IMG/VR virus record: IMGVR_UViG_3300032893_000029
Location: 9,636-73,635 of that record
Length of the DNA: 64,000 nucleotides
Origin: a virus
Reading direction: 5' to 3' (one strand)
Below are positions 12,939 to 51,978 of the stretch, piece by piece. Both the position numbers and the translations under genes were made by a program. Below the pieces are notes generated by a model. That model was not told the DNA's origin and made no database searches. It worked only from the letters and a program-made list of their open reading frames with translations. Numbering within the stretch: the first letter of the stretch is position 1; every line of letters begins with the position of its first letter.

Positions 12939-13223
12939 CTATCCGATACCGACCGCGACGTTGTTCGCGTCGGCTTTGATCTTTTCCCAGACTTCGTTCT
13001 CGACGCGGTAGAGATATCGCAAGGCGACTTCGCTGTTCCGCGCGCGGGCCTTTTTGATCAGACGCCAGCAACGCCGGTACCGCGACCTCAGATGCTTGTT
13101 GACCATCCGCCAATGCGGACCGCAGATAATCTCGGTGTTGTTGCCGGCCCATTCCTTCGACGCCGTCCTTCCGCATCCGATGACGCAGCACGGGATTCGG
13201 TCTGGCTTCAGCGGCCGGATCAA
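12939..13223 (-). CDS. Small Cys/His (Zn-binding-like) protein
   Basis: TTG overlapping TerL stop; CCVIGC...IICGPHW. Confidence 0.5.
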   Translation of the reverse strand: MIRPLKPDRIPCCVIGCGRTASKEWAGNNTEIICGPHWRMVNKHLRSRYRRCWRLIKKARARNSEVALRYLYRVENEVWEKIKADANNVAVGIG

Positions 13224-15352
13224 TAGCCCTCCGGATTCCCAAGTGCGAGCACGACGCCGAGCAGGAAGGCGCAAAGCAAATCGCCGGGCTCCTTGCTGTC
13301 CTTCTTTTCGTCGATCCGGAATGTCTCGATGTGGTCGAGCAGGAAATTCCGGGTCTGTCCGCCGAAATCGATGACCTTGTCGTCGGCCGGCTGCGCGATC
13401 TTTATCAGGTCGCGCTCGAGATAGGCCGCAACCGCGGTGGCACGTTCGGCAATACCGATGTTCGCGATCGCGTCGTTGATCGGCAGGATCGGCAGGCGCC
13501 AGCGGGCGCCATGCTGATAGACGACGGCGCCGGTCTCCTTGTTGATGACGAAGATACCGAGCGGCCTTGTCTGCGCCGGCCTTGCGAGTTCGACGAGTCT
13601 GCCGACGGCACGCTTCAGCCATTGTTCCGACAGTGCTGTTCCGACCGGTGCGAGATCCCAATCAAGGATTGTCAGCGCGTTCCCGCCGACCTTGCGGCGA
13701 CCGAAATAGACGATGCCGGCGCTATCGTTGTCCCTGCCGGTCTTCACGCCGGAAAACATCACGGCGAACACACTGTCGAGCAGCCGCGGCGGTGTGACGG
13801 GCTGGCCGCGGAAGCGCAGCTTTTCGATGTCGAAGAAGCCGTCCGATGCGCGCGAGCTCAAATAGTTGAACGCTCCGGCGCCGCCGTCGACTTGGTCATC
13901 GTGTCCTTTTGGGAACGCGCAGAGCTCATCGATGAATTCCTCGTTCCAGGCGCCGCGGACCAGGTAGACATTGCCGGCCTCGCATTGATCGGCGAAGGGT
14001 TCGGCCCGGGTGCCTTTGTCGCCGGTTTCCCGATCGGCTCTGACGCGCCAGCCGGCGAGCATCGCGATGTAGCTCTGTGCCTGTTCCTTGCCGGCCTGGC
14101 CGGGGTCCTCGTTCAGATGGATGTGGGTTTCTTTGCCGTCGATCTCGGCCGTCGCTTTGACTTCCTTTCGGACTTCATGCGCCGACTTCTGAAACCGGTT
14201 GACGTTCTCGATGTAGTAGCTGGTGTCGTCGGTCGACATCTTCAGCCCGACGGTGAAATCCGGATCGGTGCTGTCCGACGGCGCCGAGGCGGCGAGGTCC
14301 CATTTCCGGACACGGCGCGTGATCTTCGCATCCGCGGGAACGCGATCGATGATCTTGCCGTCGAACCATTTGCGCTGAAACATCCCGCCTTCGCGGGCCG
14401 TCGGGCGCTGCTGATACTGTGCGGCGTAGGCGTGCGGGCCCAAGCCCTTCTTCTGCGCTTCGACCGCTTCCCGGGGGAAGCGTATCGGTTCCAGAAGCTC
14501 GCCTTCCTCCTTGCGCCAATCGGCGCCCCATCTGGTGACGCAGCGGCGCGACTTCTCGAATGTCATCGGCAGCATGACAACCACGGTATCCGGCACGACT
14601 TCGCGCCAGACCCTGCCGATGTCTCGCGGTCCGGTGCATTGCCAGATACCGACCATTGCCGACTTCGTCAGGCTGTTCAGTCGGCTCAACGCGCCTTCGC
14701 GGAAGAGACGCGTCACTTCGGCAAGCTGGTTCTTGTATTCGACCGTCTTCACCGACAGCGGATCGTCGATGATGAGACGGTCGCCGCGTTTTCCCATCAG
14801 CGAAGCAAACGGTGCGCCGAGGCGCCAGCCCGTTGCAGTGTTCTGGAACGAATAGACGCCGGCGGTCGTTAATTCGATGAGCGGCCAGCGCTCCTGGTAC
14901 CAGTCCGACTCGATTAGCGCCTTGCAGCGATCGTTGTCGCGATCGGTCAGGGTCTTTTCGTAGGACGTGCAGAGATAGCGATAGGTCGAATAGCCCATCG
15001 CCCATTCCCATGCCGGCCAGAACACCGACACGATCAGGCTCTTCATGCAGCCCGGCGGAATCTCGATGATCAGTCTCGTGATCTCGCCGCGCGTCACCGC
15101 CTCGAGGTGTGCGCAGATCAGTTCGATGTGCGGCGACAGGATGAATTCGGCGCGGGGCTCGAGGACATGCCAGGCCTCGCGGATAAACCCGACCAGTGTT
15201 TTGCAGCGGTCGCGGCTTTCCTGAAGAAGCTCCTCACGCGTCCTGTTGTGCTGGTCCCTCTTCAGAGCCTCGCGACGCTGCCTCTCCAGCATCACGCGGG
15301 ATAGCAAGGCCGATTGAGCGGAGAAGGTCCTGGAGGGTGGCGAACTGTTCAT
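13220..15352 (-). CDS. terL: Terminase large subunit with extra C-terminal domain
   Basis: Walker A IPPGCMKS, Walker B LIIDDP, YQQRP, WDLA, HDDQVD; exact start uncertain. Confidence 0.9.
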   Translation of the reverse strand: MNSSPPSRTFSAQSALLSRVMLERQRREALKRDQHNRTREELLQESRDRCKTLVGFIREAWHVLEPRAEFILSPHIELICAHLEAVTRGEITRLIIEIPPGCMKSLIVSVFWPAWEWAMGYSTYRYLCTSYEKTLTDRDNDRCKALIESDWYQERWPLIELTTAGVYSFQNTATGWRLGAPFASLMGKRGDRLIIDDPLSVKTVEYKNQLAEVTRLFREGALSRLNSLTKSAMVGIWQCTGPRDIGRVWREVVPDTVVVMLPMTFEKSRRCVTRWGADWRKEEGELLEPIRFPREAVEAQKKGLGPHAYAAQYQQRPTAREGGMFQRKWFDGKIIDRVPADAKITRRVRKWDLAASAPSDSTDPDFTVGLKMSTDDTSYYIENVNRFQKSAHEVRKEVKATAEIDGKETHIHLNEDPGQAGKEQAQSYIAMLAGWRVRADRETGDKGTRAEPFADQCEAGNVYLVRGAWNEEFIDELCAFPKGHDDQVDGGAGAFNYLSSRASDGFFDIEKLRFRGQPVTPPRLLDSVFAVMFSGVKTGRDNDSAGIVYFGRRKVGGNALTILDWDLAPVGTALSEQWLKRAVGRLVELARPAQTRPLGIFVINKETGAVVYQHGARWRLPILPINDAIANIGIAERATAVAAYLERDLIKIAQPADDKVIDFGGQTRNFLLDHIETFRIDEKKDSKEPGDLLCAFLLGVVLALGNPEGY

Positions 15353-17436: not shown

Positions 17437-17745
17437 CCCGGAAGGGCGGGGCCGGCGATAGCGAGCCAGAGAGATTCCGGAGCTCTGGTGTTGCAGTCCG
17501 GTCCCGCCCGTAGCGGGGATCGCAGTGGGAAACGGATGATGTCCGTAGCGACCCACCGAAGGGGCGGCGCTCTTCCGACTATGCCGGCTCCCGGTACGAT
17601 TCTCGGAAGCGTTGCAGGCAGACGAAACGGTCGAGTAGGCAGAGGTCGCGGGTGCGGGTCCCGCTTGGCGCCGGCGGAAGACGCGACGCCAATAGCTCAG
17701 AACCCGGGTAAGAGAGAGCGCTGCCGAAAGACCGGCCTTCCCCAC
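17437..17745 (+). ncRNA. Structured ncRNA with 3' circularly permuted tRNA-like (YrlA-like) module
   Basis: Intergenic; T-arm, closed acceptor stem, D-arm and anticodon-like stem at 17628-17734; multibranch 5' domain; G-U pairs favour plus strand. Confidence 0.65.
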
Positions 17746-17809
17746 CTCACCAAGAAATGTTAATGCCGGAACTGCCACGCGTCGCAGCGCGAGCTCAGGA
17801 GAACGCCCG

Positions 17810-18034
17810 ATGAAACACATCTTCATCCTCATGCTGATCTTCAACCGGGAACCGATGGTTCGGGTCGGAAGCTTCGACACCAAAAAGGCGTGCGATGCCG
17901 CCGGCTTCCCTCTGACCTACGGCGGAGTGGTGGAGGAAATGAGGAGCAAAGGCTGGATCAGGGAGGGCCAGTTAGTCAGCATCAGCGGAAGATATGCTGA
18001 CGATTACACATGCGTTATGGCCAACGGCAGATGA
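17810..18034 (+). CDS. Hypothetical early protein
   Basis: AGGAG RBS; preceded by TCGCAG-loop hairpin. Confidence 0.6.
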   Translation: MKHIFILMLIFNREPMVRVGSFDTKKACDAAGFPLTYGGVVEEMRSKGWIREGQLVSISGRYADDYTCVMANGR

Positions 18035-19381: not shown

Positions 19382-19401
19382 AATGTTTCACGTGAAACAT
19401 T
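19382..19401. promoter_or_regulatory. parS: parS site
   Basis: Perfect palindrome AATGTTTCACGTGAAACATT containing the chromosomal parS consensus. Confidence 0.85.
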
Positions 19402-19470: not shown

Positions 19471-19548
19471 CTTTACAGCCCCGGGCTTGGTGCCTGAACC
19501 TCTTCCCATCAAGACCGGTCGCAGCCGGTCGCGCATCAGGAGGACAAA
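19471..19548 (+). promoter_or_regulatory. Early promoter + leader hairpin, copy 1
   Basis: CTTTACAG-N12-TGCCTGA-N9-CATCAA, GACCGG-TCGCAG-CCGGTC, AGGAGG. Confidence 0.8.
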
Positions 19549-19716
19549 ATGCCGGTATCCGAAAAGACAGTCCGCGTCCCGGTCGGCGGAAACGACACCG
19601 ACGAGCTCGAGAAGCTGGTCGACGAGATTCTTTCCCGTCCGGAAAACGCGGACTACGAATTGGTCGACATATCGTCCGACGATGCAGTGACCGAGCTCAC
19701 GCTTCGGCACATCTGA
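19549..19716 (+). CDS. 55-aa acidic protein (not in ORF track)
   Basis: AGGAGG RBS; MPVSEKTVRVPVGGNDTDELEKLVDEILSRPENADYELVDISSDDAVTELTLRHI. Confidence 0.7.
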   Translation: MPVSEKTVRVPVGGNDTDELEKLVDEILSRPENADYELVDISSDDAVTELTLRHI

Positions 19717-20168: not shown

Positions 20169-20245
20169 CTTTACAGGGGCCCGCTGGGTGCCTGACCATC
20201 ACGACATCAAGAGCGTTCGCAGCGCTCGCACTTAGGAGGACAGCA
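20169..20245 (+). promoter_or_regulatory. Early promoter + leader hairpin, copy 2
   Basis: CTTTACAG-N12-TGCCTGA-N9-CATCAA, GAGCG-TTCGCAG-CGCTC, TTAGGAGG. Confidence 0.8.
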
Positions 20246-20476
20246 ATGCTTAAGATCGAATTCAATACCCGCGAATATGAATTCTCGCACGGCCACAAGC
20301 CGCGCGGGCGCGGATCATGGGCGTTCTTTCCCAATCGCAAGACGCTCATCGAGCAAGCGATGTGGACGCCGTCGATGACCTACGGCGAGGCCAAGCGCTG
20401 GATCGCCGCCAAGCTCCGTTCGGCACATTGTCCCGATACGGATCACGACAGCATCGAACTCTTTGTCGGGAGCTAG
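20246..20476 (+). CDS. Hypothetical early protein
   Basis: AGGAGG RBS; Y.FSHG.KPRG.GSWAF motif. Confidence 0.7.
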   Translation: MLKIEFNTREYEFSHGHKPRGRGSWAFFPNRKTLIEQAMWTPSMTYGEAKRWIAAKLRSAHCPDTDHDSIELFVGS

Positions 20477-23812: not shown

Positions 23813-24265
23813 ATGACGAAATTCGAAACTCCGGCGTTGCAACGAGCCTACGATGTCGCGGTCAAAGCGTTCCACGATAAGCAAAGCTATCTCTATGCTG
23901 ACGGGAAGCCATTGCGCGGATCATCGGACCGTCACTCATTCTGGAATGGATTCAACGGTCATCCGCCGCGGCACGCGAAAACGTCGATTGCTTACGCGAC
24001 ATGGGCGGCTGGCCGCGACATGCGCGAGCAAGCACGACGCCCGACTGACCAGGACGTGCTCGAGCTCTTGACGGCCGCGGAAAACGGCCTTGCATCGATG
24101 ATGACCGAGCTATCCATGATCCTCGAAAGTCACTGCAAGCTTGACCGGAACTACAAGCCGCGACGCGCCACGCTCGATCCTGGTGTCAAACGGTTTGTCG
24201 AGACGCTTGAAGAAAAAATCTCGCAGGCGCGTAAAGCGATCGCGAACTGCAGGAAACCATCTTGA
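23813..24265 (+). CDS. Hypothetical protein
   Basis: 150-aa ORF in early operon. Confidence 0.55.
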   Translation: MTKFETPALQRAYDVAVKAFHDKQSYLYADGKPLRGSSDRHSFWNGFNGHPPRHAKTSIAYATWAAGRDMREQARRPTDQDVLELLTAAENGLASMMTELSMILESHCKLDRNYKPRRATLDPGVKRFVETLEEKISQARKAIANCRKPS

Positions 24266-24375
24266 CGCGCCCGCCGGCGATCGTCTCGGTCCTGATGCGC
24301 GGGATATTCATCGGCGGGTTTCTCGCGGTGCTGCTATGGGCATTTTGCCTTCTGCCGCCTCGTCGGATGGGTCTA

Positions 24376-24490
24376 GGCCGGGCCCCCGGGCGGGACCCTT
24401 CGCAGGGGCCCCGCCAGACCTAACCAGGGCGCTTAGGAGACGGTGGGAACCATCAATCCCTAGTCAGGCCTCCCCTTTCGGGGCCCGGCC
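24376..24490 (-). ncRNA. Candidate trans-acting antisense sRNA
   Basis: CCCC-GAAA-GGGG; 14-bp arm with 3 G-U pairs; 10-bp hairpin with loop CTGCGAA; GCTATAC -10 at 24492-24498 on minus strand. Confidence 0.65.
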
Positions 24491-24575
24491 CGTATAGCAC
24501 GAATCAGGGCCCGGAAAAGACCCCGCCGCCGGTCAAAAATGGCGGAATTCCGGGGAAAAAATCGTCCGGTGGTGG

Positions 24576-24649
24576 CTTTACAGCTCCGGGCTGACTGCCT
24601 GAAACTCGAATCATCAAAGGGGATCGCAGTCCCCCGCTAGGAGTCCGAA
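24576..24649 (+). promoter_or_regulatory. Early promoter + leader hairpin, copy 3
   Basis: CTTTACAG-N12-TGCCTGA-N9-CATCAA, GGGGA-TCGCAG-TCCCC, CTAGGAG. Confidence 0.8.
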
Positions 24650-25270
24650 ATGACCTACGACGAAAACCCCTACGGAAACCTTTCCGATGTCGAGCTCGTC
24701 GAATTCGTGCTCGGCCCCAAGGCCAAGGAAGGCATCGCGGAAACGCTGGTCCAGTCCTTCGGCAATTTTCAGGAAGTTGTCGCGGCGACTCCGGTCCGTC
24801 TTTCCGAACACGGGCTTTCCGACCATGCCGTTACGCGGCTGAAGAAATTCCACACCGCGGCGACGCGGATGCACGCCCTTAAGGTTCTCAATCGGCCAGC
24901 GATGTCGAGTTGGGCGGATGTCACCGAATATCTCACGGTGAAGATCGCCAGACTGGAGCACGAGGAATTTCATGTGCTGTTTGTCGACCGCAAAAACAAC
25001 CTGATCGCCGACGAAAGGATGAGCCGCGGCACGATCGACCACGCCCCGGTGTATCCGCGCGAAGTGGTGAAGCGGGCGCTCGAACTCAATGCCGCCAGCA
25101 TCATCCTCTCGCACAATCACCCCAGCGGCGACCCGACACCCAGCCGCGCCGATATCGACATCACGCGAAAGATCGTCGACGCCTGCAAGGCCATCGACAT
25201 CCGGGTGCTCGATCACGTCATTGTTGGCCGCAATGGCACGGCCAGCATGAAGGCCTTAGGGCTGATCTGA
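24650..25270 (+). CDS. radC: RadC family JAB/MPN protein
   Basis: EEFHVLF, GTID..PVYPREV, HNHPSGDP.PS.AD, LDHVIVG. Confidence 0.9.
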   Translation: MTYDENPYGNLSDVELVEFVLGPKAKEGIAETLVQSFGNFQEVVAATPVRLSEHGLSDHAVTRLKKFHTAATRMHALKVLNRPAMSSWADVTEYLTVKIARLEHEEFHVLFVDRKNNLIADERMSRGTIDHAPVYPREVVKRALELNAASIILSHNHPSGDPTPSRADIDITRKIVDACKAIDIRVLDHVIVGRNGTASMKALGLI

Positions 25271-25713: not shown

Positions 25714-26247
25714 ATGGGGACTAAACGCGAAATTATTCCATTCTCGCCGCTTCCCGGCAAAGAGTGGCGCGCCATCGAGGAATGGATGGGATACGAAGTT
25801 AGCAATTTTGGCCGGGTTCGGCGCGTATCTCTGATGGTCGCGCGACCAAATTCAGATGGCTATCCAATGGTTCATCTCAGTTTCGGCAAACGAGGCAAAG
25901 CCAGACTTCGGGCAGTGCATATATTGGTGACGCAGGCGTTTCACGGTCCACGGCCATCGCCACGGCATACCGCATCGCATGAAGACGGCGTCAGAAGCAA
26001 TTGTCGTTCAGACAATCTCTTATGGGAAACACACTCGGAAAATCTGGCTCGCCGAAGGGACCACGGGACACATATTGTCGGTGAGCGCAACGGCACGGCC
26101 AAGCTCACCACCAACCAGGTATTGGAAATTCGAGCGAAACGCGCAGCCGGGCCGCGCGGAATAGTCAAAGCCCTAGCGCTAGAATACGGCATGTCGGAGT
26201 CAACAATCAGCCGTATCTGTCTTCGGCAAGGATGGTCTCATGTCTAA
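25714..26247 (+). CDS. NUMOD4-HNH homing endonuclease
   Basis: EWR.I....GYEVSNFGRVR; VH.LV..AF; H.DG...N....NL.W. Confidence 0.85.
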   Translation: MGTKREIIPFSPLPGKEWRAIEEWMGYEVSNFGRVRRVSLMVARPNSDGYPMVHLSFGKRGKARLRAVHILVTQAFHGPRPSPRHTASHEDGVRSNCRSDNLLWETHSENLARRRDHGTHIVGERNGTAKLTTNQVLEIRAKRAAGPRGIVKALALEYGMSESTISRICLRQGWSHV

Positions 26248-27139
26248 AATTCGAGTGGACCGTATCAAACCCGATCCGGGCCAGCCTAGAAAACTCTTTG
26301 ATCTTGCGGACCTTCAAGAGCTCGCCGCGTCGATCAAAGCCAACGGATTGCTGCAGCCGATCCTGGTCCGGCCGGCAGAGAAAAAAGGCGAGTTCTACAT
26401 CGTCGCCGGCGAGCGGCGCTGGCGCGCCCAAAAGCTGCTGATCGACGCCGGCGAGAAGGGCTTCACCCAAATCGAATGCTCGCTCGCCGGACTGCCGGGC
26501 AAGCCGATGAAGGAAGTCACCCTCCGGGTGAAGCAGATCGTCGAGAACGTCGTCCGTGCCGACATGACGCCCCTCGAGGAAGCCCACGCCTTCCAGAACC
26601 TGCTCGAGCTCGGTCTTGATGAGCAGAAAGCGGCGAGCCACATCGGCATTCCGCTGAGCAAGTTCCAGCGCAGTGTGTCACTGCTCCGGCTCGAGCCGCA
26701 GATTGCGAAGCTGCTCGCGGCGAAACAGATCGATGTCCCGCAGGCCTATCAGCTTGCCAGGCTCCCCCGCCACGAAGACCAGATGCAGATCCTTCGCCTG
26801 CTGAACCGCGGCGAGCTCGGCAAGTGGAAATCCTTCGAAGCCGCGATCGATGCGAAGCTTGAAGGCGTCACCCAGGAAGATTTCTTCGGACCCGGTGCGC
26901 CGGCGGCAACCGAAAAGGAAGTCGCCGAACTCAACGCGATGGAGCAGAAGATCGAGCGGGTTGCCGGGCTTCTGTCGGCCGGCTGGTCCAAGGGCGCCTG
27001 TATCGTCGCCAACAAGGTCTCCCCCGATCGCGCCCGACACATGGCCGACAGGCTCGCCGCGATCCGGCTTACCGTCCGCACGATGGAAGCAGAATTGCGA
27101 GCTATTAACGCTCAAGCGAAAATTGCCCTGGAGACATGA
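26240..27139 (+). CDS. ParB/Spo0J-like protein
   Basis: P.QPRK.F, ELA.SIK.NGLLQPI.VR, AGERRWRA, EN..R.D..P.EEA. Confidence 0.85.
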   Translation: MSKIRVDRIKPDPGQPRKLFDLADLQELAASIKANGLLQPILVRPAEKKGEFYIVAGERRWRAQKLLIDAGEKGFTQIECSLAGLPGKPMKEVTLRVKQIVENVVRADMTPLEEAHAFQNLLELGLDEQKAASHIGIPLSKFQRSVSLLRLEPQIAKLLAAKQIDVPQAYQLARLPRHEDQMQILRLLNRGELGKWKSFEAAIDAKLEGVTQEDFFGPGAPAATEKEVAELNAMEQKIERVAGLLSAGWSKGACIVANKVSPDRARHMADRLAAIRLTVRTMEAELRAINAQAKIALET

Positions 27140-31077: not shown

Positions 31078-31244
31078 CCCTCGTCATTCTCAAAAAAGAA
31101 AAGGACCGGCGGTTATCCCGCCGGTCCCTCTGGAAGATGCGTTTCGTTCGCGAGAATCGCGATGTGAGAACCGTGCCTACATGACGTTCTCCTTTCGCTC
31201 TAGCTTCTGGGACCGGCGCACCGGTCCTTGGGTGCCTGGAAAGA

Positions 31245-35137: not shown

Positions 35138-35341
35138 TTAAGCGGCAGCGATTCGTTCGTATTCGACTGGCTTCCGGCGCAGGCCGAGCGGCTCGAGGAC
35201 GCTGTCCCCGGGCTCGGATTTTTCGTTGAGGACATCGGAAACGTACTGCTTGGAGACGCCGTTCTTGGTCGCCCAGGCCGTGAGCGATCCTTCCGCTTCG
35301 ACCGCCCGCCGGAGGATTCTTCGCACTTCCGCAGCTTTCAT
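35138..35341 (-). CDS. Cro-like HTH regulator
   Basis: WA...GVS.QYVSDVL.....PG..VL..LGL; first gene of leftward operon. Confidence 0.75.
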   Translation of the reverse strand: MKAAEVRRILRRAVEAEGSLTAWATKNGVSKQYVSDVLNEKSEPGDSVLEPLGLRRKPVEYERIAAA

Positions 35342-42520: not shown

Positions 42521-43960
42521 ATGACGGAGGGTTTCAAGATCACGTGGCTCGATTCCGGACTGGAGCCGCGGTGTGCGCCGAATCCAAACTATCCCAACGG
42601 TATCGATGTCGATGTCAGTGACGGCGCGTTGAAAACCTGCCGCGTCGAGCTCCCTTATCCGGCGAAGCGCATCGGTCGTTATCGCGTCGAATGCGAGAAG
42701 TGCGGGATCAAGGCCGAATGCACGACAGCCGGCAGGCCGGATGATCCGACGAGCATCACCATCGGCTGCTACACCCAAAAACTCTTTCCCGGTGTGACCA
42801 GGATCACAATCGGGCCAAGCCCCGTAAAGGAGAAAAAGCCGTGAGAACACAAGATGAAATCCTCGCCGAAGCCCGGCGATCGATTCGTGTCAGAGAAGAT
42901 CCTTTCGGCACCTATCTCGGCGAACTTATCATGCGCTTGCCCTTCGATGTCGCCAATGAATTCCTCACGGTCGAAGCGACGGCGGAAAAATTCGGCGATC
43001 CAAAACCATGCGATGACGAAACCGTCATCGGCGAGCTCAGGGAGTACATGGCATTCGCCTGGGACAAAGCCAACAATTGTCGCGGTCTTTCCGCGGTGCG
43101 ATCGCTCTATCACATGAAGGCCTGGCTGTGGCTGCTCGGAGAAGATGACGCCGCGACACATCTGTTCGACGACTATCGTTTCTACGGCAAGCCGCAACTC
43201 GCCGCGATTTGCGAGCATTACGCGATCGACTGGAAAGCGCTCGATGACGGCAACTGGACCAACGACGAAAGCTGCAACGGACCTGTTGGCTGTCCGGAAC
43301 CGCTCAAATGGAACCAGCCGGCGCTTTCCGTCGAGACGCCGCCGGCGCCGGACAAGATCACCGCAGAAGAAATGCGCACGGTGTTCGGCACCGACATGCC
43401 GATCGAGGCGGTCAAGCTGCTCTGGGAAACGCCAGACGACTGGACCGTTGGTCAGGTCCGCGCCGAGCTCCGTCGCATCATGGAAGAGCGCAAGAAGGCA
43501 AGAACCATCACGATACATATAAAAGTCCCGCCGGAACCGCGGCTGGAAACCCCGACGACGGCGCTGCGCTGGAACGGCGGCGTGCTGGAACAGGCCTTCG
43601 TGCATCATGTCCCGCCGTCCTACACCGAAGAAATCGAGTGGCGCCGCGTTCCAGACGCCGAATAGAGGGGGAGCCATGACATACAAAATCGTGGCTGGCG
43701 CCGTCGTCGTTTTCGGTCTTGTCGTGTCGGTCTTCGCGATAGTTTCGCGCGTGCTGCCGCAACCGGCGCCAGGGCGCACGGTTGTTTGCGGCAACGATTT
43801 CTTCTTGCTGGAAAAGGGGTCGCAGCCCCTTGTCGGCACCGACGGCAATGTGCTGTGGCCGTCGGACTGGTCGACAGAACAGGCGCGTCAGTACCGCGAC
43901 AAGCATCACATCCCCGGCGGCTGGCGCCCGACGGACAGAACAGAAGAGAGAAAGCCGTGA
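42521..43960 (+). CDS. Hypothetical ORFs (42521-42844 Cys-rich, 42841-43665, 43676-43960)
   Basis: Coupled ORFs; YM.FAWDKANNCRGLSA motif in 42841-43665. Confidence 0.6.
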
Positions 43961-44134
43961 ACACCGGAGTCGTAACGCTGTCGCTGTACTGCATCTTGTG
44001 GGGCATCTAGTCGATCAACCCGCGATTTCCGCCGGCCTGGCAATCCGGCATGTTCCTGCTTGCTATTGTATTCGGATTCTTCGCCGGCATTTCCGTATCG
44101 ACATCACCGTGAAACTCAAAAAGAAAGGCAAACC

Positions 44135-45682
44135 ATGACTGACATCGCTGTTTCGAAACTGAAGTTCGGCCAGGACTACCCGCCGGGCTGCATCAACATC
44201 CGTTCCGTCGATCGCGACGCCGATCTTCCCGAGCTCACCGCGTCGATCAAAGCCGAAGGTCTGCTTCAGCCGCTGGTCGGTGTCGAGCATAACGGCGATT
44301 TCTACATCGCCGACGGCAACCGCCGGCTCGCCGCGCTTAAGAAGCTGAAGCTCGAAACGATTCACGAAAGCAATCTCTGGCTGATCGACGGCACATCCGT
44401 CGAGGACATCAAGACCAAGGCGCTTGCCGCCAATATCCAGCGGGTGCCAATGCATGAAGTCGACCGCTACGAAGCCTTCGCCGCGCTGAACCTTCCGCCG
44501 GAGAAGATCGCGGAACGCTTCGGTGTCGATATCAAAGTCGTCAAGCGGGCGCTGGCACTCGGCAACCTCTGCGATGTCATCCGCAAGGACTGGAAAGCCG
44601 GCAAGCTGAGATCGGATGTCGCTAGGGCCTTCACGCTCCAGCCGGATCTGAAGCTTCAGGAACAGGTCTACAACCGGCTTAAGAAATCGCACCAGATACA
44701 TTCCGATTGGGTGGTCCGCCGCGAGATCACCGGCAATGTCGATGCGGAGCGTGTCGCCGATCTTCTGGCCTATGTCGGAGAGCCCGAATATCTCGCCGCC
44801 GGCGGCGTCATCGTCCATGACCTTTTTTTCGTCGAGAACGAGACGAGGTCCGTCGTCGGCAATTACGAGCTTCTGGTCAAATGCGCGAAGGACAAGGCCG
44901 AAGCGTTTATCGCGAAGCTTAAGGAAGAAGGCTGGTCCTGGGTGGCGTTCGATTTCGAGCTCCCAATGTACTGGCATCACGACATGCAGATCATCGGCAA
45001 AAAAGCCGACAAGGCCAAAACCGGCTGTGTCGTCGCGATCAAGAACGGGAAGCTCGATATCACTGTCGGCGTGTCGAAGACGAAAGCCAAGGTCGCCGGC
45101 GAGAAGCGGACTGAGGCAAAGAGGGCAAATCCGAATAAGATATCGAACGCCCTGATGCGCCGCATCGACCGCTGGAACGCGGTGGCGACGAAGAAGGCGC
45201 TGACGATGATCGCGACACACAATGCCACCAACAATCCGCTAATGGCGGTCCTTGCGGAAACCGTTGCGAGGATCATCTTTCCGGATCGTGCCGGTTTCAC
45301 TCCGGACCCTGTTACGAAGGCCTTGCCGGACATCCGCAATGCCACGCTCGAGATCACGATCGCGTCGGAACTTGTGAAGGCCTTCGACCGCAAGGACTAT
45401 TTCTCCAACGCGCCGAAACTGGTTGTGCTGAAGGCGGTAGAGGAGTGCTTCGGCAAGGAAACGGTGACGAAGCTCGCCGCAAAATCGAAGCCTGACATCT
45501 GGAAGTTCGCGCTCGCCAATCTGCCGTCGACCTATCTGCCGCCGGCGATGCGGACGAAACGCTACACCGTTGCGAAAGCGAAGGATGGGACCAGACTGGC
45601 GGCTGAAGGCACGCTTGAGAAGGCCAAAGGCAAGAAAGGCCCGGCGAAGAAAAAGGCGCCGGCGCGGAGGAAGGCGGCATGA
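44135..45682 (+). CDS. ParB-like protein, long form
   Basis: L.ASI.AEGLLQPL, DGNRRL.AL, N.QR..M..VD.YEAF, IA.RFG; Y.AAGG....DLF. Confidence 0.8.
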   Translation: MTDIAVSKLKFGQDYPPGCINIRSVDRDADLPELTASIKAEGLLQPLVGVEHNGDFYIADGNRRLAALKKLKLETIHESNLWLIDGTSVEDIKTKALAANIQRVPMHEVDRYEAFAALNLPPEKIAERFGVDIKVVKRALALGNLCDVIRKDWKAGKLRSDVARAFTLQPDLKLQEQVYNRLKKSHQIHSDWVVRREITGNVDAERVADLLAYVGEPEYLAAGGVIVHDLFFVENETRSVVGNYELLVKCAKDKAEAFIAKLKEEGWSWVAFDFELPMYWHHDMQIIGKKADKAKTGCVVAIKNGKLDITVGVSKTKAKVAGEKRTEAKRANPNKISNALMRRIDRWNAVATKKALTMIATHNATNNPLMAVLAETVARIIFPDRAGFTPDPVTKALPDIRNATLEITIASELVKAFDRKDYFSNAPKLVVLKAVEECFGKETVTKLAAKSKPDIWKFALANLPSTYLPPAMRTKRYTVAKAKDGTRLAAEGTLEKAKGKKGPAKKKAPARRKAA

Positions 45683-51360: not shown

Positions 51361-51511
51361 AGAGCACCGGCTTTCGCCGTCTGCCTTCACCATAGGATGC
51401 CCTACATCAGAACTGCAGGAGCATCAGCTTTCTTCGTCTTTCAGCCACCAGGACCGTTGTCGTGTTTGTCATGAAAACGACTCCTCTGTTTCGACTCGCA
51501 CCCTGCCATAG

Positions 51512-51545
51512 AAAAAGGGCCCGGAGCTATGGCGCCCGGGCCCTC
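51512..51545 (-). terminator. tmRNA terminator
   Basis: AGGGCCCGG/CCGGGCCCT stem followed by TTTT on minus strand. Confidence 0.75.
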
Positions 51546-51866
51546 TCCTTCTGTTGCCAGGGCCCCTTAAGGGGCCCCCGGAGCTCAGGCCGCTACGCGG
51601 TCCGCTCCAGCGAACGTATTGTCGTTCGCATCTATGTTGCCCGCGGGTCTCCTGTGAGGCCTTCCCGCCCGTCGATCCTGTTTCGTCCCCTTATCGCCCA
51701 CCGGCCAGACTGGTTACTGGGGCAATTCTGCCGCAAGCGGCGCGACCGTCGGTCCCCCGAGCGGACTCGCGATGGGCGTTTCGGTGCCAACCGAAACTGG
51801 TGGAGACGCCGGGTACCGCCCCCGGGTCCGGCTCGATCCGTCCTCACGATCACTGATTTGCGAGCG
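51546..51866 (-). ncRNA. ssrA: Two-piece (permuted) tmRNA; tag ANDNTFAGADRVAA
   Basis: Acceptor piece ends GACCCGGGGGCGGTACCCGGCGTCTCCACCA (CCA at 51798); coding piece starts GGGGACGAAACAGGATCGAC at 51690; G3-U70 pair; tag 51629-51585; CTGGCAACAGAAG end. Confidence 0.92.
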
Positions 51867-51894
51867 GCGGGACCATAGCGCCGGCGCGGACAAG

Positions 51895-51921
51895 AAAAAA
51901 GCCCCGGCCGGAGCCGGGGCT
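51895..51921 (-). terminator. Terminator of lysis/late operon
   Basis: AGCCCCGGC-TCCG-GCCGGGGCT-TTTTT. Confidence 0.85.
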
Positions 51922-51978
51922 GAAGTCTGAAGCGTACTCTGATGTCCCGCGAATCGGCGAAGCGATTCGAAGCCCGAT

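What the first reader, a model, noticed from the sequence alone, without database searches (positions are those of the whole stretch)
24376..24498. Candidate multi-target antisense sRNA that could silence the early operons (RNA-based switch)
Seen: on the minus strand, after a GCTATAC -10 box, the region folds into CCCC-GAAA-GGGG, a 14-bp arm AGGCCUGACUAGGG/CCCUGGUUAGGUCU carrying an unpaired UCCUAAGCG, and a 10-bp hairpin with loop CUGCGAA. Five G-U pairs and a GNRA loop all favour the minus strand. CUGCGA(A) is the exact complement of the (U)UCGCAG loops in the leader hairpins at 17782, 19519, 20216 and 24624. (C)UCCUAAG complements the RBSs just downstream (CUUAGGAG, GCUAGGAG, UCAGGAG). The two elements are in the correct antiparallel order. 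The RNA also contains UUGAUG, complementary to the CAUCAA at the leader 5' ends, which may be chance. It is transcribed divergently from early promoter 3. Established: P1 C4 and P4 CI are bipartite antisense RNAs controlling immunity. Inference: this is an unrelated sRNA that uses loop-loop kissing plus RBS occlusion on at least four dispersed leaders, in a window with no recognisable CI-type repressor.
Basis: partly seen in the sequence, partly recalled or inferred. Interest (0 to 1): 0.9.

Follow-up and report, generated by a model that had tools for sequence, protein, structure and literature searches.

The report
Candidate antisense RNA against phage early leaders
A 115-base stretch of this phage folds, on the strand opposite its early genes, into the most stable RNA shape in the genome and exposes two short segments that match the start regions of four early messages, so it may be an RNA switch, but nothing yet shows that it is made.

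Summary
Window 24376-24490 (minus strand) folds into a three-way junction. It has an 11-bp closing stem, a 14-bp arm with an unpaired UCCUAAGCG, and a 10-bp hairpin with loop CUGCGAA. The energy is -78.8 kcal/mol (z -4.0), the most stable of 1838 windows across the 73.6-kb genome. It has 5 G-U pairs and no mismatch. The plus strand folds worse (-63.5, z -1.8).

The loop complements the invariant (U)UCGCAG loops of four leader hairpins. The unpaired segment complements their CGC..AGGAG motif.

Three caveats:
- The plus strand of the element carries the same leader motifs in sense orientation, so a shared origin explains the complementarity equally well.
- The proposed -10 box would start transcription inside the closing stem, and no U-tract terminator follows.
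- No relative, RNA read or sequence variant was found, so covariation and expression are untested.

My best reading, at confidence 0.4, is a trans-acting antisense RNA that works like P1 C4. It is not a member of that family. The main rivals are a sense-strand member of the hairpin set and a cis-antisense partner of a small membrane-protein ORF. The scan has no look-alike on other DNA.

The parts
24376..24490 (-). Whole structured element: a 115-nt three-way junction RNA, the candidate sRNA core
   Evidence: MFE -78.8 kcal/mol, z -4.0. Most stable of 1838 genome windows. Ensemble pairing is well defined. The minus-strand flanks are unstructured.
24480..24490 (-). 5' strand of the 11-bp all-G-C closing stem (GGCCGGGCCCC)
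   Evidence: It pairs with 24376-24386.
24376..24386 (-). 3' strand of the closing stem (GGGGCCCGGCC)
24472..24479 (-). Junction strand GAAAGGGG, unpaired. Its GGGG could pair with the UCCC loop at 24445-24448; that pairing is my inference.
   Evidence: Unpaired probability 0.7-1.0.
24416..24471 (-). 14-bp arm (24471-24458 with 24429-24416; 3 G-U pairs) holding a 6-bp inner hairpin and the unpaired anti-RBS segment
   Evidence: On the plus strand the three G-U pairs become A-C mismatches and the arm does not form.
24430..24438 (-). Unpaired UCCUAAGCG, complementary to the CGC..(U)AGGAG motif of the leaders
   Evidence: Unpaired probability 0.94-1.0. Hybrid-only ranks of the four leaders are 1, 5, 7 and 10 of 115. 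With accessibility they are 16, 65, 83 and 105.
24389..24415 (-). 10-bp hairpin (1 G-U pair) with 7-nt loop CUGCGAA (24399-24405), complementary to the (U)UCGCAG leader loops
   Evidence: Loop-site ranks are 1, 2, 3 and 8 of 115.
24492..24520 (-). Promoter-like match CTTTTC-N16-CTATAC.
   Evidence: 9 of 12 matches to CTTGAC-N17-CTATAT (consensus from the PMC2873474 abstract). Such scores occur 73 times on both strands of the genome. The start site would fall inside the closing stem, and the generic sigma-70 scan did not find it.
17778..17812 (+). Leader 1: CGCG-TCGCAG-CGCG hairpin, AGGAG, ATG 17810. It lacks the shared promoter motif.
19471..19551 (+). Promoter module 1 (CTTTACAG-N12-TGCCTGA-N9-CATCAA) and leader 2 (GACCGG-TCGCAG-CCGGTC, AGGAGG, ATG 19549)
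20169..20248 (+). Promoter module 2 and leader 3 (GAGCG-TTCGCAG-CGCTC, CTTAGGAGG, ATG 20246)
24576..24652 (+). Promoter module 3 and leader 4 (GGGGA-TCGCAG-TCCCC, CGCTAGGAG, ATG 24650 of a RadC-like gene)
   Evidence: Best summed two-site energy of 115 start regions.
24262..24423 (+). Small ORF of 53 codons (TTG overlapping the upstream stop, or ATG at 24295) with one membrane-helix-like segment. Its last 16 codons lie inside the element.
   Evidence: GC by codon position is 0.66/0.50/0.74 before the element. The hydropathy peak is 2.3.

Best explanation
The element encodes a minus-strand RNA of about 115 nt that folds into a closed three-way junction and acts in trans on the phage's own early messages.

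Shown by folding:
- One arm ends in the 7-nt loop CUGCGAA.
- The other arm carries the 9-nt unpaired UCCUAAGCG.

Inferred mechanism:
- The loop forms a 6-7-bp loop-loop (kissing) helix with the invariant (U)UCGCAG loop. That loop sits about 6 nt from the presumed 5' end of four early leaders.
- The unpaired segment then pairs with the adjacent CGC..AGGAG motif and blocks ribosome binding.
- This would explain why the leader loops are invariant while their stems differ.
- The RNA probably arose from a leader-like module now read from the other strand.
- Its ends are more likely set by a start upstream of 24490, or by processing at the closing stem, than by the GCTATAC box.

Not shown: when it is made, and whether it acts as an early shut-off or as immunity.
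For: 1. Strand- and RNA-specific structure.
- Minus strand: -78.8 kcal/mol, z -4.0, 0 of 200 shuffles. Plus strand: -63.5, z -1.8.
- 5 G-U pairs and no mismatch in 41 pairs.
- With DNA parameters the two strands are nearly equal, -33.5 against -30.8.
- Most stable of 1838 genome windows.

2. Both antisense segments lie in the two largest unpaired stretches. 0 of 3000 shuffles expose both CUGCGA and CUCCU.

3. Specificity for the leaders.
- Loop-site ranks are 1, 2, 3 and 8 of 115 start regions.
- Hybrid-only anti-RBS ranks are 1, 5, 7 and 10 of 115. By my own hypergeometric arithmetic, all four in the top ten has p of about 3e-5.
- The RadC leader has the best summed energy of the 115.

4. The leader hairpin set is real and unusual. 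The three shared promoter modules are expected 0.00 times by chance. None of 264 + 80 other phage loci has three or more leader hairpins sharing a loop.

5. The RBS-like motif on the plus strand has no proper gene. It is followed by GTG after 3 nt and a 6-codon frame.

6. A 9 of 12 promoter-like match lies just upstream on the minus strand.
Against: - No evidence of a minus-strand transcript. No RNA run was listed, which says nothing either way.
- The consensus scan found no sigma-70 promoter or terminator here.
- The 9 of 12 promoter match would start the RNA inside the closing stem. From that start the MFE loses the CUGCGAA hairpin.
- No U-tract follows the element, although this phage has canonical U-tract terminators.
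- The plus strand of the element carries TTCGCAG in a hairpin loop and then CGCTTAGGAG. Complementarity to the leaders therefore follows from shared motifs whatever strand is used.
- All six TCGCAG-loop hairpins, including one inside a gene at 43814, are in sense orientation on the plus strand.
- With accessibility of the target included, the anti-RBS site ranks only 16, 65, 83 and 105 of 115.
- Nested-structure co-folding gives no net gain, +2.1 to +3.2 kcal/mol. This method cannot model kissing loops.
- The strand asymmetry of 15.3 kcal/mol is 2.3 SD of the genome-wide spread.
- No homologue exists, so there is no covariation test.
Confidence: 0.4

Rival explanations
1. Sense-strand element. 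The TTCGCAG hairpin in the element is one more member of a plus-strand hairpin set read by a protein or host factor. Comparable cases are boxB with lambda N, or coat-protein operators. Here the member sits at the 3' end of the upstream operon, or is a relic of a lost promoter-leader-gene module. No antisense RNA is made.
For: - All six hairpins with this loop are on the plus strand, in sense to the genes: 17778, 19513, 20211, 24389, 24619 and 43814.
- The plus strand of the element also has CGCTTAGGAG and CATCAA, the other leader motifs.
- The closing stem is all G-C and forms equally on both strands.
- No minus-strand promoter or terminator was found by the consensus scan.
Against: - The 14-bp arm and inner hairpin form only on the minus strand. 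Five G-U pairs become A-C mismatches on the plus strand.
- The plus-strand z-score is only -1.8.
- In the element the loop and the RBS motif are 25 nt apart and split between two arms, unlike the compact leaders.
- The RBS-like motif has no usable ORF.
- A decaying relic is not expected to be the most stable RNA fold of the genome.
Confidence: 0.22
2. Cis-antisense RNA. A minus-strand RNA is made, but its target is the perfectly complementary 3' end of the upstream operon. That region includes the small membrane-protein ORF 24262-24423. The closest models are the 3'-overlapping type I toxin-antitoxin pairs of Bacillus prophages (TxpA/RatA and BsrG/SR4, recalled). The match to the leaders is a by-product of the shared hairpin motif.
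For: - The small ORF shows a coding-like GC pattern of 0.66/0.50/0.74 and one hydrophobic helix with hydropathy 2.3.
- Its start overlaps the upstream stop, with AGGA 7 nt upstream.
- Its last 16 codons and stop lie inside the element.
- The minus-strand-specific structure fits an antisense RNA.
Against: - The ORF has no promoter of its own and sits at the end of a long operon, unlike known type I toxins.
- It has no Pfam or homologue support; I did not search it.
- This reading does not explain why an anti-RBS segment specific to the leaders is exposed.
- The same lack of promoter and terminator evidence applies.
Confidence: 0.15
3. Structural spacer without a regulatory RNA role. The element is a G+C-rich inverted-repeat element acting as an operon boundary. 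It could be a factor-dependent or atypical terminator, an RNase processing site, or a DNA-level element. Its match to the leaders would then have no function.
For: - It lies exactly between the end of one operon and the next promoter module.
- It is closed by an 11-bp stem that forms on either strand.
Against: - No U-tract follows on either strand, while the phage's own terminators have one.
- DNA-parameter folding is weak, z -2.1 and -1.8.
- This reading does not explain the G-U asymmetry or the exposure of both motifs, 0 of 3000 shuffles.
Confidence: 0.13

Closest known systems
P1/P7 C4 antisense RNA (Rfam RF01695) and P4 CI RNA
   Same: Each is a small phage RNA closed by a terminal stem. 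Each presents two short single-stranded antisense segments that pair with two sites around a ribosome-binding site of a non-overlapping phage message and keep lytic or anti-repressor functions off. The C4 role comes from passages of PMC8198154. The two-segment architecture, the RNase P processing and the P4 CI details are recalled.
   Different: - There is no covariance-model match: 0 hits at E <= 10 in the genome and none in the local scan.
- C4 and CI lie on the same strand as their targets and are cut from the same transcript (recalled). Here the complementarity requires the opposite strand.
- Here four dispersed leaders would be targeted.
- One contact would be a loop-loop helix with a structured hairpin.
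ColE1 RNA I/RNA II and R1 CopA/CopT kissing complexes; OxyS-fhlA two-site kissing (all recalled)
   Same: Recognition is through fully complementary 6-7-nt hairpin loops. OxyS uses two separate exposed segments on one target, one of them at the ribosome-binding site.
   Different: RNA I and CopA are cis-encoded and fully complementary to one target. OxyS is a host RNA with a terminator. None of them is a phage RNA aimed at a repeated leader hairpin.
P22 sar and lambda OOP (recalled)
   Same: Short phage antisense RNAs transcribed against the direction of the neighbouring operon, in or next to an intergenic region.
   Different: They act only on the overlapping message, and they have recognisable promoters and terminators.
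3'-overlapping type I toxin-antitoxin pairs of prophages (TxpA/RatA, BsrG/SR4; recalled)
   Same: A small hydrophobic ORF whose 3' end is overlapped by a structured RNA on the other strand, in a phage genome.
   Different: Here the ORF is the last gene of an operon and has no promoter of its own. Toxicity is unknown.
Lambda-type nut boxB hairpins bound by N (recalled)
   Same: This applies to the leader hairpins. They are promoter-proximal RNA hairpins with an invariant loop and variable stems, repeated in several early transcripts.
   Different: No N-like protein was identified. The hairpins abut ribosome-binding sites. One copy sits inside a minus-strand-optimised fold.

Membership tests
Rfam C4 antisense RNA (RF01695) | Match to the family covariance model at or above the gathering score (45 bits) | tested here: not met
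   0 matches at E <= 10 in the whole 73.6-kb genome. No C4 hit in the permissive scan of 24200-24700.
Rfam C4 antisense RNA (RF01695) | Encoded on the same strand as its targets, upstream of them, and excised from the shared transcript (recalled feature) | tested here: not met
   The sequence shows complementarity to the leaders only for the minus strand, while all targets are on the plus strand.
Rfam C4 antisense RNA (RF01695) | Two exposed antisense segments that pair around a ribosome-binding site | tested here: met
   In silico only. UCCUAAGCG and CUGCGAA are unpaired in the fold and complementary to the leaders.
Any described RNA family (Rfam 15, 4227 models) | Covariance-model match | tested here: not met
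   At gathering threshold the window gives only tmRNA at 51.5 kb. At E <= 10 the region gives only a 19-bit b55 match against a gathering score of 70 bits.
Intrinsic (Rho-independent) terminator | G+C-rich hairpin followed directly by a U-tract | tested here: not met
   No terminator-like site at the element on either strand (sequence). A canonical example from this phage has a U-tract.
This phage's own leader module (hairpin with (T)TCGCAG loop, CGC, AGGAG, start codon) | Loop sequence and RBS motif in sense orientation on the plus strand | tested here: met
   TTCGCAG loop at 24399-24405 and CGCTTAGGAG at 24430-24439 on the plus strand.
This phage's own leader module (hairpin with (T)TCGCAG loop, CGC, AGGAG, start codon) | Preceded by CTTTACAG-N12-TGCCTGA-N9-CATCAA; RBS directly after the hairpin; a gene follows | tested here: not met
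   The promoter pattern has only 3 copies, none upstream of the element. 25 nt separate the loop from the RBS motif. Only GTG after 3 nt and a 6-codon frame follow.
Type I toxin-antitoxin, 3'-overlap class | Small hydrophobic ORF overlapped at its 3' end by a structured antisense RNA | tested here: inconclusive
   The ORF is plausible and the overlap is real. Transcription of the antisense strand and toxicity are unknown.
Type I toxin-antitoxin, 3'-overlap class | Toxin gene with its own promoter and convergent antitoxin promoter | tested here: inconclusive
   No promoter was found for the ORF, whose start overlaps the upstream stop codon. The only minus-strand candidate is a 9 of 12 promoter-like match.
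Bona fide expressed sRNA gene | A discrete transcript with defined 5' and 3' ends | not testable with these tools
   No RNA run holds the region. The three DNA runs only confirm the DNA sequence.

The most novel reading that the evidence does not exclude
A phage with no recognisable integrase or CI-type repressor controls four dispersed early transcription units with one trans-acting three-way-junction RNA. The RNA docks by a loop-loop kiss on an invariant hexaloop at the 5' end of each early message. It then covers a leader-specific CGC..AGGAG ribosome-binding motif. This would be an RNA-only early shut-off or immunity switch that evolved from a leader copy read backwards.
Probability: 0.3. 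Interest if true: 0.8.

Novelty: new variant of a known kind. Interest (0 to 1): 0.55.

Why it matters
If the RNA is made and acts as proposed, one phage sRNA would switch several unlinked early operons through a shared RNA 'address', the invariant leader loop. That goes beyond the single-operon logic of P1 C4, P4 CI, P22 sar and lambda OOP. It would also explain a hairpin set with a conserved loop and variable stems without invoking a protein.

The design is compact and easy to test with compensatory loop mutations, and it could serve as a portable multi-gene RNA switch. If the sense-strand reading is right instead, the interest moves to the unknown factor that reads the UCGCAG hairpins.

Either way, the element is the strongest RNA structure in this otherwise orphan phage genome.

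Tried and rejected
**Homologues and covariation**
- blastn of 24270-24660 found nothing in phages or plasmids.
- Covariance model R1 was built from the single sequence. It found 0 hits in 80 loci around RadC relatives (432 kb) and 0 in 80 loci around TerL relatives (1.09 Mb).
- In 80 loci around relatives of the 76-aa first gene after promoter 2 (772 kb) it found only 2 weak partial hits: 17.5 and 14.9 bits, E 2.6 and 8.1.
- In the window it found only itself at 153.7 bits, plus two weak hits: 16.8 bits (E 0.29) on the plus strand at 24366-24424, overlapping the element, and 10.2 bits (E 5.6) at 51897-51924.
- The 150-aa gene just upstream has no relative among 5.8 billion proteins or in viral contigs. 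The 76-aa gene alone found none in viral contigs.
- The promoter pattern gave 101 single chance hits in viral contigs.
- The promoter + CATCAA pattern gave 2 metagenome hits and 1 genome hit. I read the two metagenome hits, and they lie in what looks to me like unrelated protein-coding sequence. I did not open the genome hit, in a Runella record.
- Earlier findings of the scan show no look-alike elsewhere.

**Expression**
- No RNA holder was listed.
- Contigs of three wetland DNA runs carry the identical sequence, with no variant listed between 22485 and 25017, which includes the element. They give no polymorphism test. Depth in two of the three runs is low.

**Other readings considered**
- Known RNA family: none. 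tRNA or tmRNA: none here.
- Retron-like RNA: no minus-strand gene follows the element. I ran no reverse-transcriptase family search.
- Single-stranded-DNA element: weak with DNA parameters.
- N4-type hairpin promoter (recalled idea): the start would remove the RBS, and no ORF in the window exceeds 764 aa.
- A shared minus-strand promoter motif with other minus-strand operons: none found.

**Method notes**
- Nested co-folding of the RNA with each leader gave no gain, but it cannot model kissing.
- Unrestricted duplex search gave meaningless long duplexes. I replaced it with windowed site energies.
- The gene list used as control (115 start regions) is a crude ORF/RBS/GC3 call. Some of its starts are wrong.
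- One search had a counting bug and was replaced.

**Not available**
- I did not ask for any paper supplements.

Full report
**Setting**

The window is bases 9636-73635 of a 73,635-bp IMG/VR virus record, classed as having direct terminal repeats. It was assembled from a wetland metagenome. Genes found:
- A large terminase at 13220-15352 on the minus strand. Its nearest cultured relatives are Erythrobacter and Rhizobium phages at about 40% identity.
- A block of mostly orphan plus-strand genes from 17.8 to 28.3 kb. It includes a DUF4942 protein, RadC, two HNH endonucleases and a ParB-like protein.
- DNA-modification and recombination genes further on.
- A permuted alpha-type tmRNA gene at 51.5 kb.

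No tyrosine integrase, serine recombinase or S24 peptidase was found. The only HTH_3 match is sub-threshold at 14 bits, at 35192-35266 on the minus strand.

**The repeated leaders**

The pattern CTTTACAG-N12-TGCCTGA occurs three times, at 19471, 20169 and 24576. The chance expectation is 0.00. Each copy is followed after exactly 9 nt by CATCAA. Next comes a hairpin whose stem differs between copies (GACCGG, GAGCG, GGGGA) and whose loop is TCGCAG or TTCGCAG. Then come CGC, an AGGAG-type RBS and an ATG.

A fourth hairpin, CGCG-TCGCAG-CGCG, precedes the ATG at 17810 without the promoter motif. A fifth, AAGGGG-TCGCAG-CCCCTT, lies inside a gene at 43814.

This is not a common pattern. None of 264 other loci held at that point, and none of 80 fetched later, has three or more RBS-proximal hairpins sharing a loop. 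TCGCAG itself is not enriched: 50 copies against 63 expected.

**The element**

On the minus strand, 24490-24376 folds into a closed three-way junction:
- An 11-bp all-G-C closing stem.
- The junction strand GAAAGGGG.
- A 14-bp arm with three G-U pairs. It holds a 6-bp inner hairpin and the unpaired UCCUAAGCG.
- A 10-bp hairpin with one G-U pair and the loop CUGCGAA.

The numbers:
- The energy is -78.8 kcal/mol, z -4.02, with 0 of 200 shuffles as stable.
- The ensemble is well defined, and both motifs have unpaired probabilities near 1.
- There are 30 G-C, 6 A-U and 5 G-U pairs, with no mismatch inside any helix.
- The plus strand reaches only -63.5, z -1.76. The five G-U pairs become A-C mismatches there, and the 14-bp arm does not form.
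- With DNA parameters the strands are nearly equal, -33.5 and -30.8. The signal is therefore RNA-specific.
- Across the genome (1838 windows of 123 nt, both strands) the element is the most stable fold. Outside the element the best value is -69.1, and the GC-corrected z is -4.8. The strand difference of 15.3 kcal/mol is 2.3 SD.
- The minus-strand flanks are unstructured, with z values of about 0, +1.5 and -0.8. The unit is sharply bounded.

No Rfam family matches, and the C4 model finds nothing in the genome.

**Complementarity to the leaders**

CUGCGA(A) is the exact complement of (U)UCGCAG.
- Loop site, in a windowed hybridisation-plus-accessibility calculation over 115 crude start regions: the four leaders rank 1, 2, 3 and 8.
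- Unpaired segment CUCCUAAGCGC, hybrid energy alone, restricted to -25..+5 of the start: the leaders rank 1, 5, 7 and 10 of 115. The segment matches the leader-specific CGC..AGGAG motif, not only the generic Shine-Dalgarno core.
- Unpaired segment with target accessibility included, using windows that reach into untranscribed DNA: the ranks fall to 16, 65, 83 and 105. Only the RadC leader has the best summed energy of the 115; the others rank 16, 22 and 36.
- Shuffles: in 3000 dinucleotide shuffles of the element, CUGCGA is fully unpaired in 5, CUCCU in 36, and both in 0.
- Nested co-folding shows no gain, but it cannot represent loop-loop helices.

1. The plus strand of the element reads as a hairpin with loop TTCGCAG, then 25 nt, then CGCTTAGGAG, and it also contains CATCAA. 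These are the leader motifs in the leaders' own orientation. Any RNA from the other strand is therefore complementary to the leaders by construction, and the complementarity alone does not prove an antisense function. Against a simple relic, the motifs are not contiguous as in the leaders. They sit at the tips of two arms of a fold that works only on the minus strand. The plus-strand RBS motif is followed by GTG after 3 nt and a 6-codon frame.

2. The GCTATAC box is part of a 9 of 12 match, CTTTTC-N16-CTATAC, to the rhizobial sigma-70 consensus CTTGAC-N17-CTATAT (consensus from the abstract of PMC2873474). Such scores occur 73 times on the two strands of the genome, about one per 2 kb. The generic sigma-70 scan does not report it. 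The match ends at 24492, so transcription would start near 24485, inside the closing stem. From that start the MFE keeps the arm with the anti-RBS segment but replaces the CUGCGAA hairpin, and z falls to -2.6.

3. No U-tract follows the element on either strand, although this phage has a canonical stem-plus-U-tract terminator near 31.1 kb.

4. A 53-codon ORF at 24262-24423 runs into the element. Its TTG start overlaps the upstream stop, with AGGA 7 nt upstream. It has one hydrophobic helix and a coding-like GC pattern before the element. Any minus-strand RNA would also be a cis-antisense partner of that message.

**Comparative and expression evidence**

I could obtain neither.
- The phage is an orphan. 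The best RadC relative is at 49% and the best TerL relative at 55% in IMG/VR. The upstream 150-aa gene is unique among 5.8 billion proteins.
- A covariance model of the element finds nothing credible in 240 loci totalling 2.3 Mb.
- Pattern scans of viral, metagenome and genome collections gave only single isolated matches. The two metagenome hits I read look like chance, and I did not open the genome hit.
- No RNA run holds the region.
- Three DNA runs hold the identical sequence without variants.

**Weighing**

The minus-strand, RNA-specific structure and the exposure of two leader-specific antisense segments are hard to explain if only the plus strand matters. The invariant leader loops with variable stems call for a loop-specific reader.

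A trans-acting antisense RNA explains both. It works like P1 C4 (role from passages of PMC8198154; architecture recalled), but it is not a member of that family. Because there is no promoter, terminator, transcript or covariation evidence, I hold this at 0.4.

The rivals:
- A sense-strand hairpin-family member or relic: 0.22.
- A cis-antisense partner of the small ORF: 0.15.
- A structural operon boundary: 0.13.
- The remainder is chance or something not considered.

Noticed in passing
window 43814-43831 (+): The hairpin AAGGGG-TCGCAG-CCCCTT is nearly a copy of the RadC leader hairpin (AAAGGGGA-TCGCAG-TCCCC), but it lies inside the coding region of a 94-aa gene (43676-43960). It may be a sixth member of the hairpin set, or a further target.
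   Followed up: partly
window 24262-24423 (+): A small ORF of 53 codons, or 42 from the ATG at 24295, with one membrane-helix-like segment. Its start overlaps the stop of the upstream orphan gene, and its tail is encoded by the structured element.
   Followed up: partly
window 51494-51890 (-): A permuted (two-piece, alpha-type) tmRNA gene lies inside a virus record classed as having direct terminal repeats. ARAGORN and two Rfam models agree. It is either a phage-borne tmRNA or host DNA in the record.
   Followed up: no
window 19471-19513, 20169-20211, 24576-24619 (+): The three shared promoter modules have a -35-like TTTACA but a -10 region (TGAACC, TGACCA, TGAAAC at 17-nt spacing) unlike the sigma-70 consensus. 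A-tracts precede two of them. They may need a phage or alternative sigma factor, or they may be operator sites.
   Followed up: partly
window 35138-35341 (-): A 67-aa ORF gives a sub-threshold HTH_3 match (14 bits, E 0.004) in the divergent region between a minus-strand and a plus-strand operon. It is the only Cro/CI-like candidate seen. No integrase, resolvase or S24 peptidase is present in the genome.
   Followed up: partly
window 26240-27139 (+) and 44060-45682 (+): ParB_N-domain proteins occur in a phage without an integrase. Together with the parS-like palindrome noted earlier at 19382, this could point to a plasmid-prophage lifestyle.
   Followed up: no
window about 31090-31130 (-): A canonical intrinsic terminator, GGACCGGCGG-GATAA-CCGCCGGTCC followed by a U-tract, lies upstream of the Mom-like gene. 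It shows what this phage's terminators look like.
   Followed up: no
window 17437-17745 (+): Earlier notes of the scan flag a structured RNA candidate of about 300 nt just upstream of leader 1. I did not examine it. Leader 1 lacks the shared promoter, so it may be transcribed together with that region.
   Followed up: no
window 20246-20476 (+): The 76-aa first gene after promoter 2 belongs to a large family with no Pfam match here. It has 653 representatives at E <= 0.001, and the invariant positions in the 27-sequence alignment are H15, P19, G21, G23, W25, F27 and A49. Most of the listed matches are between 55 and 150 residues long, and relatives are found on viral contigs.
   Followed up: partly
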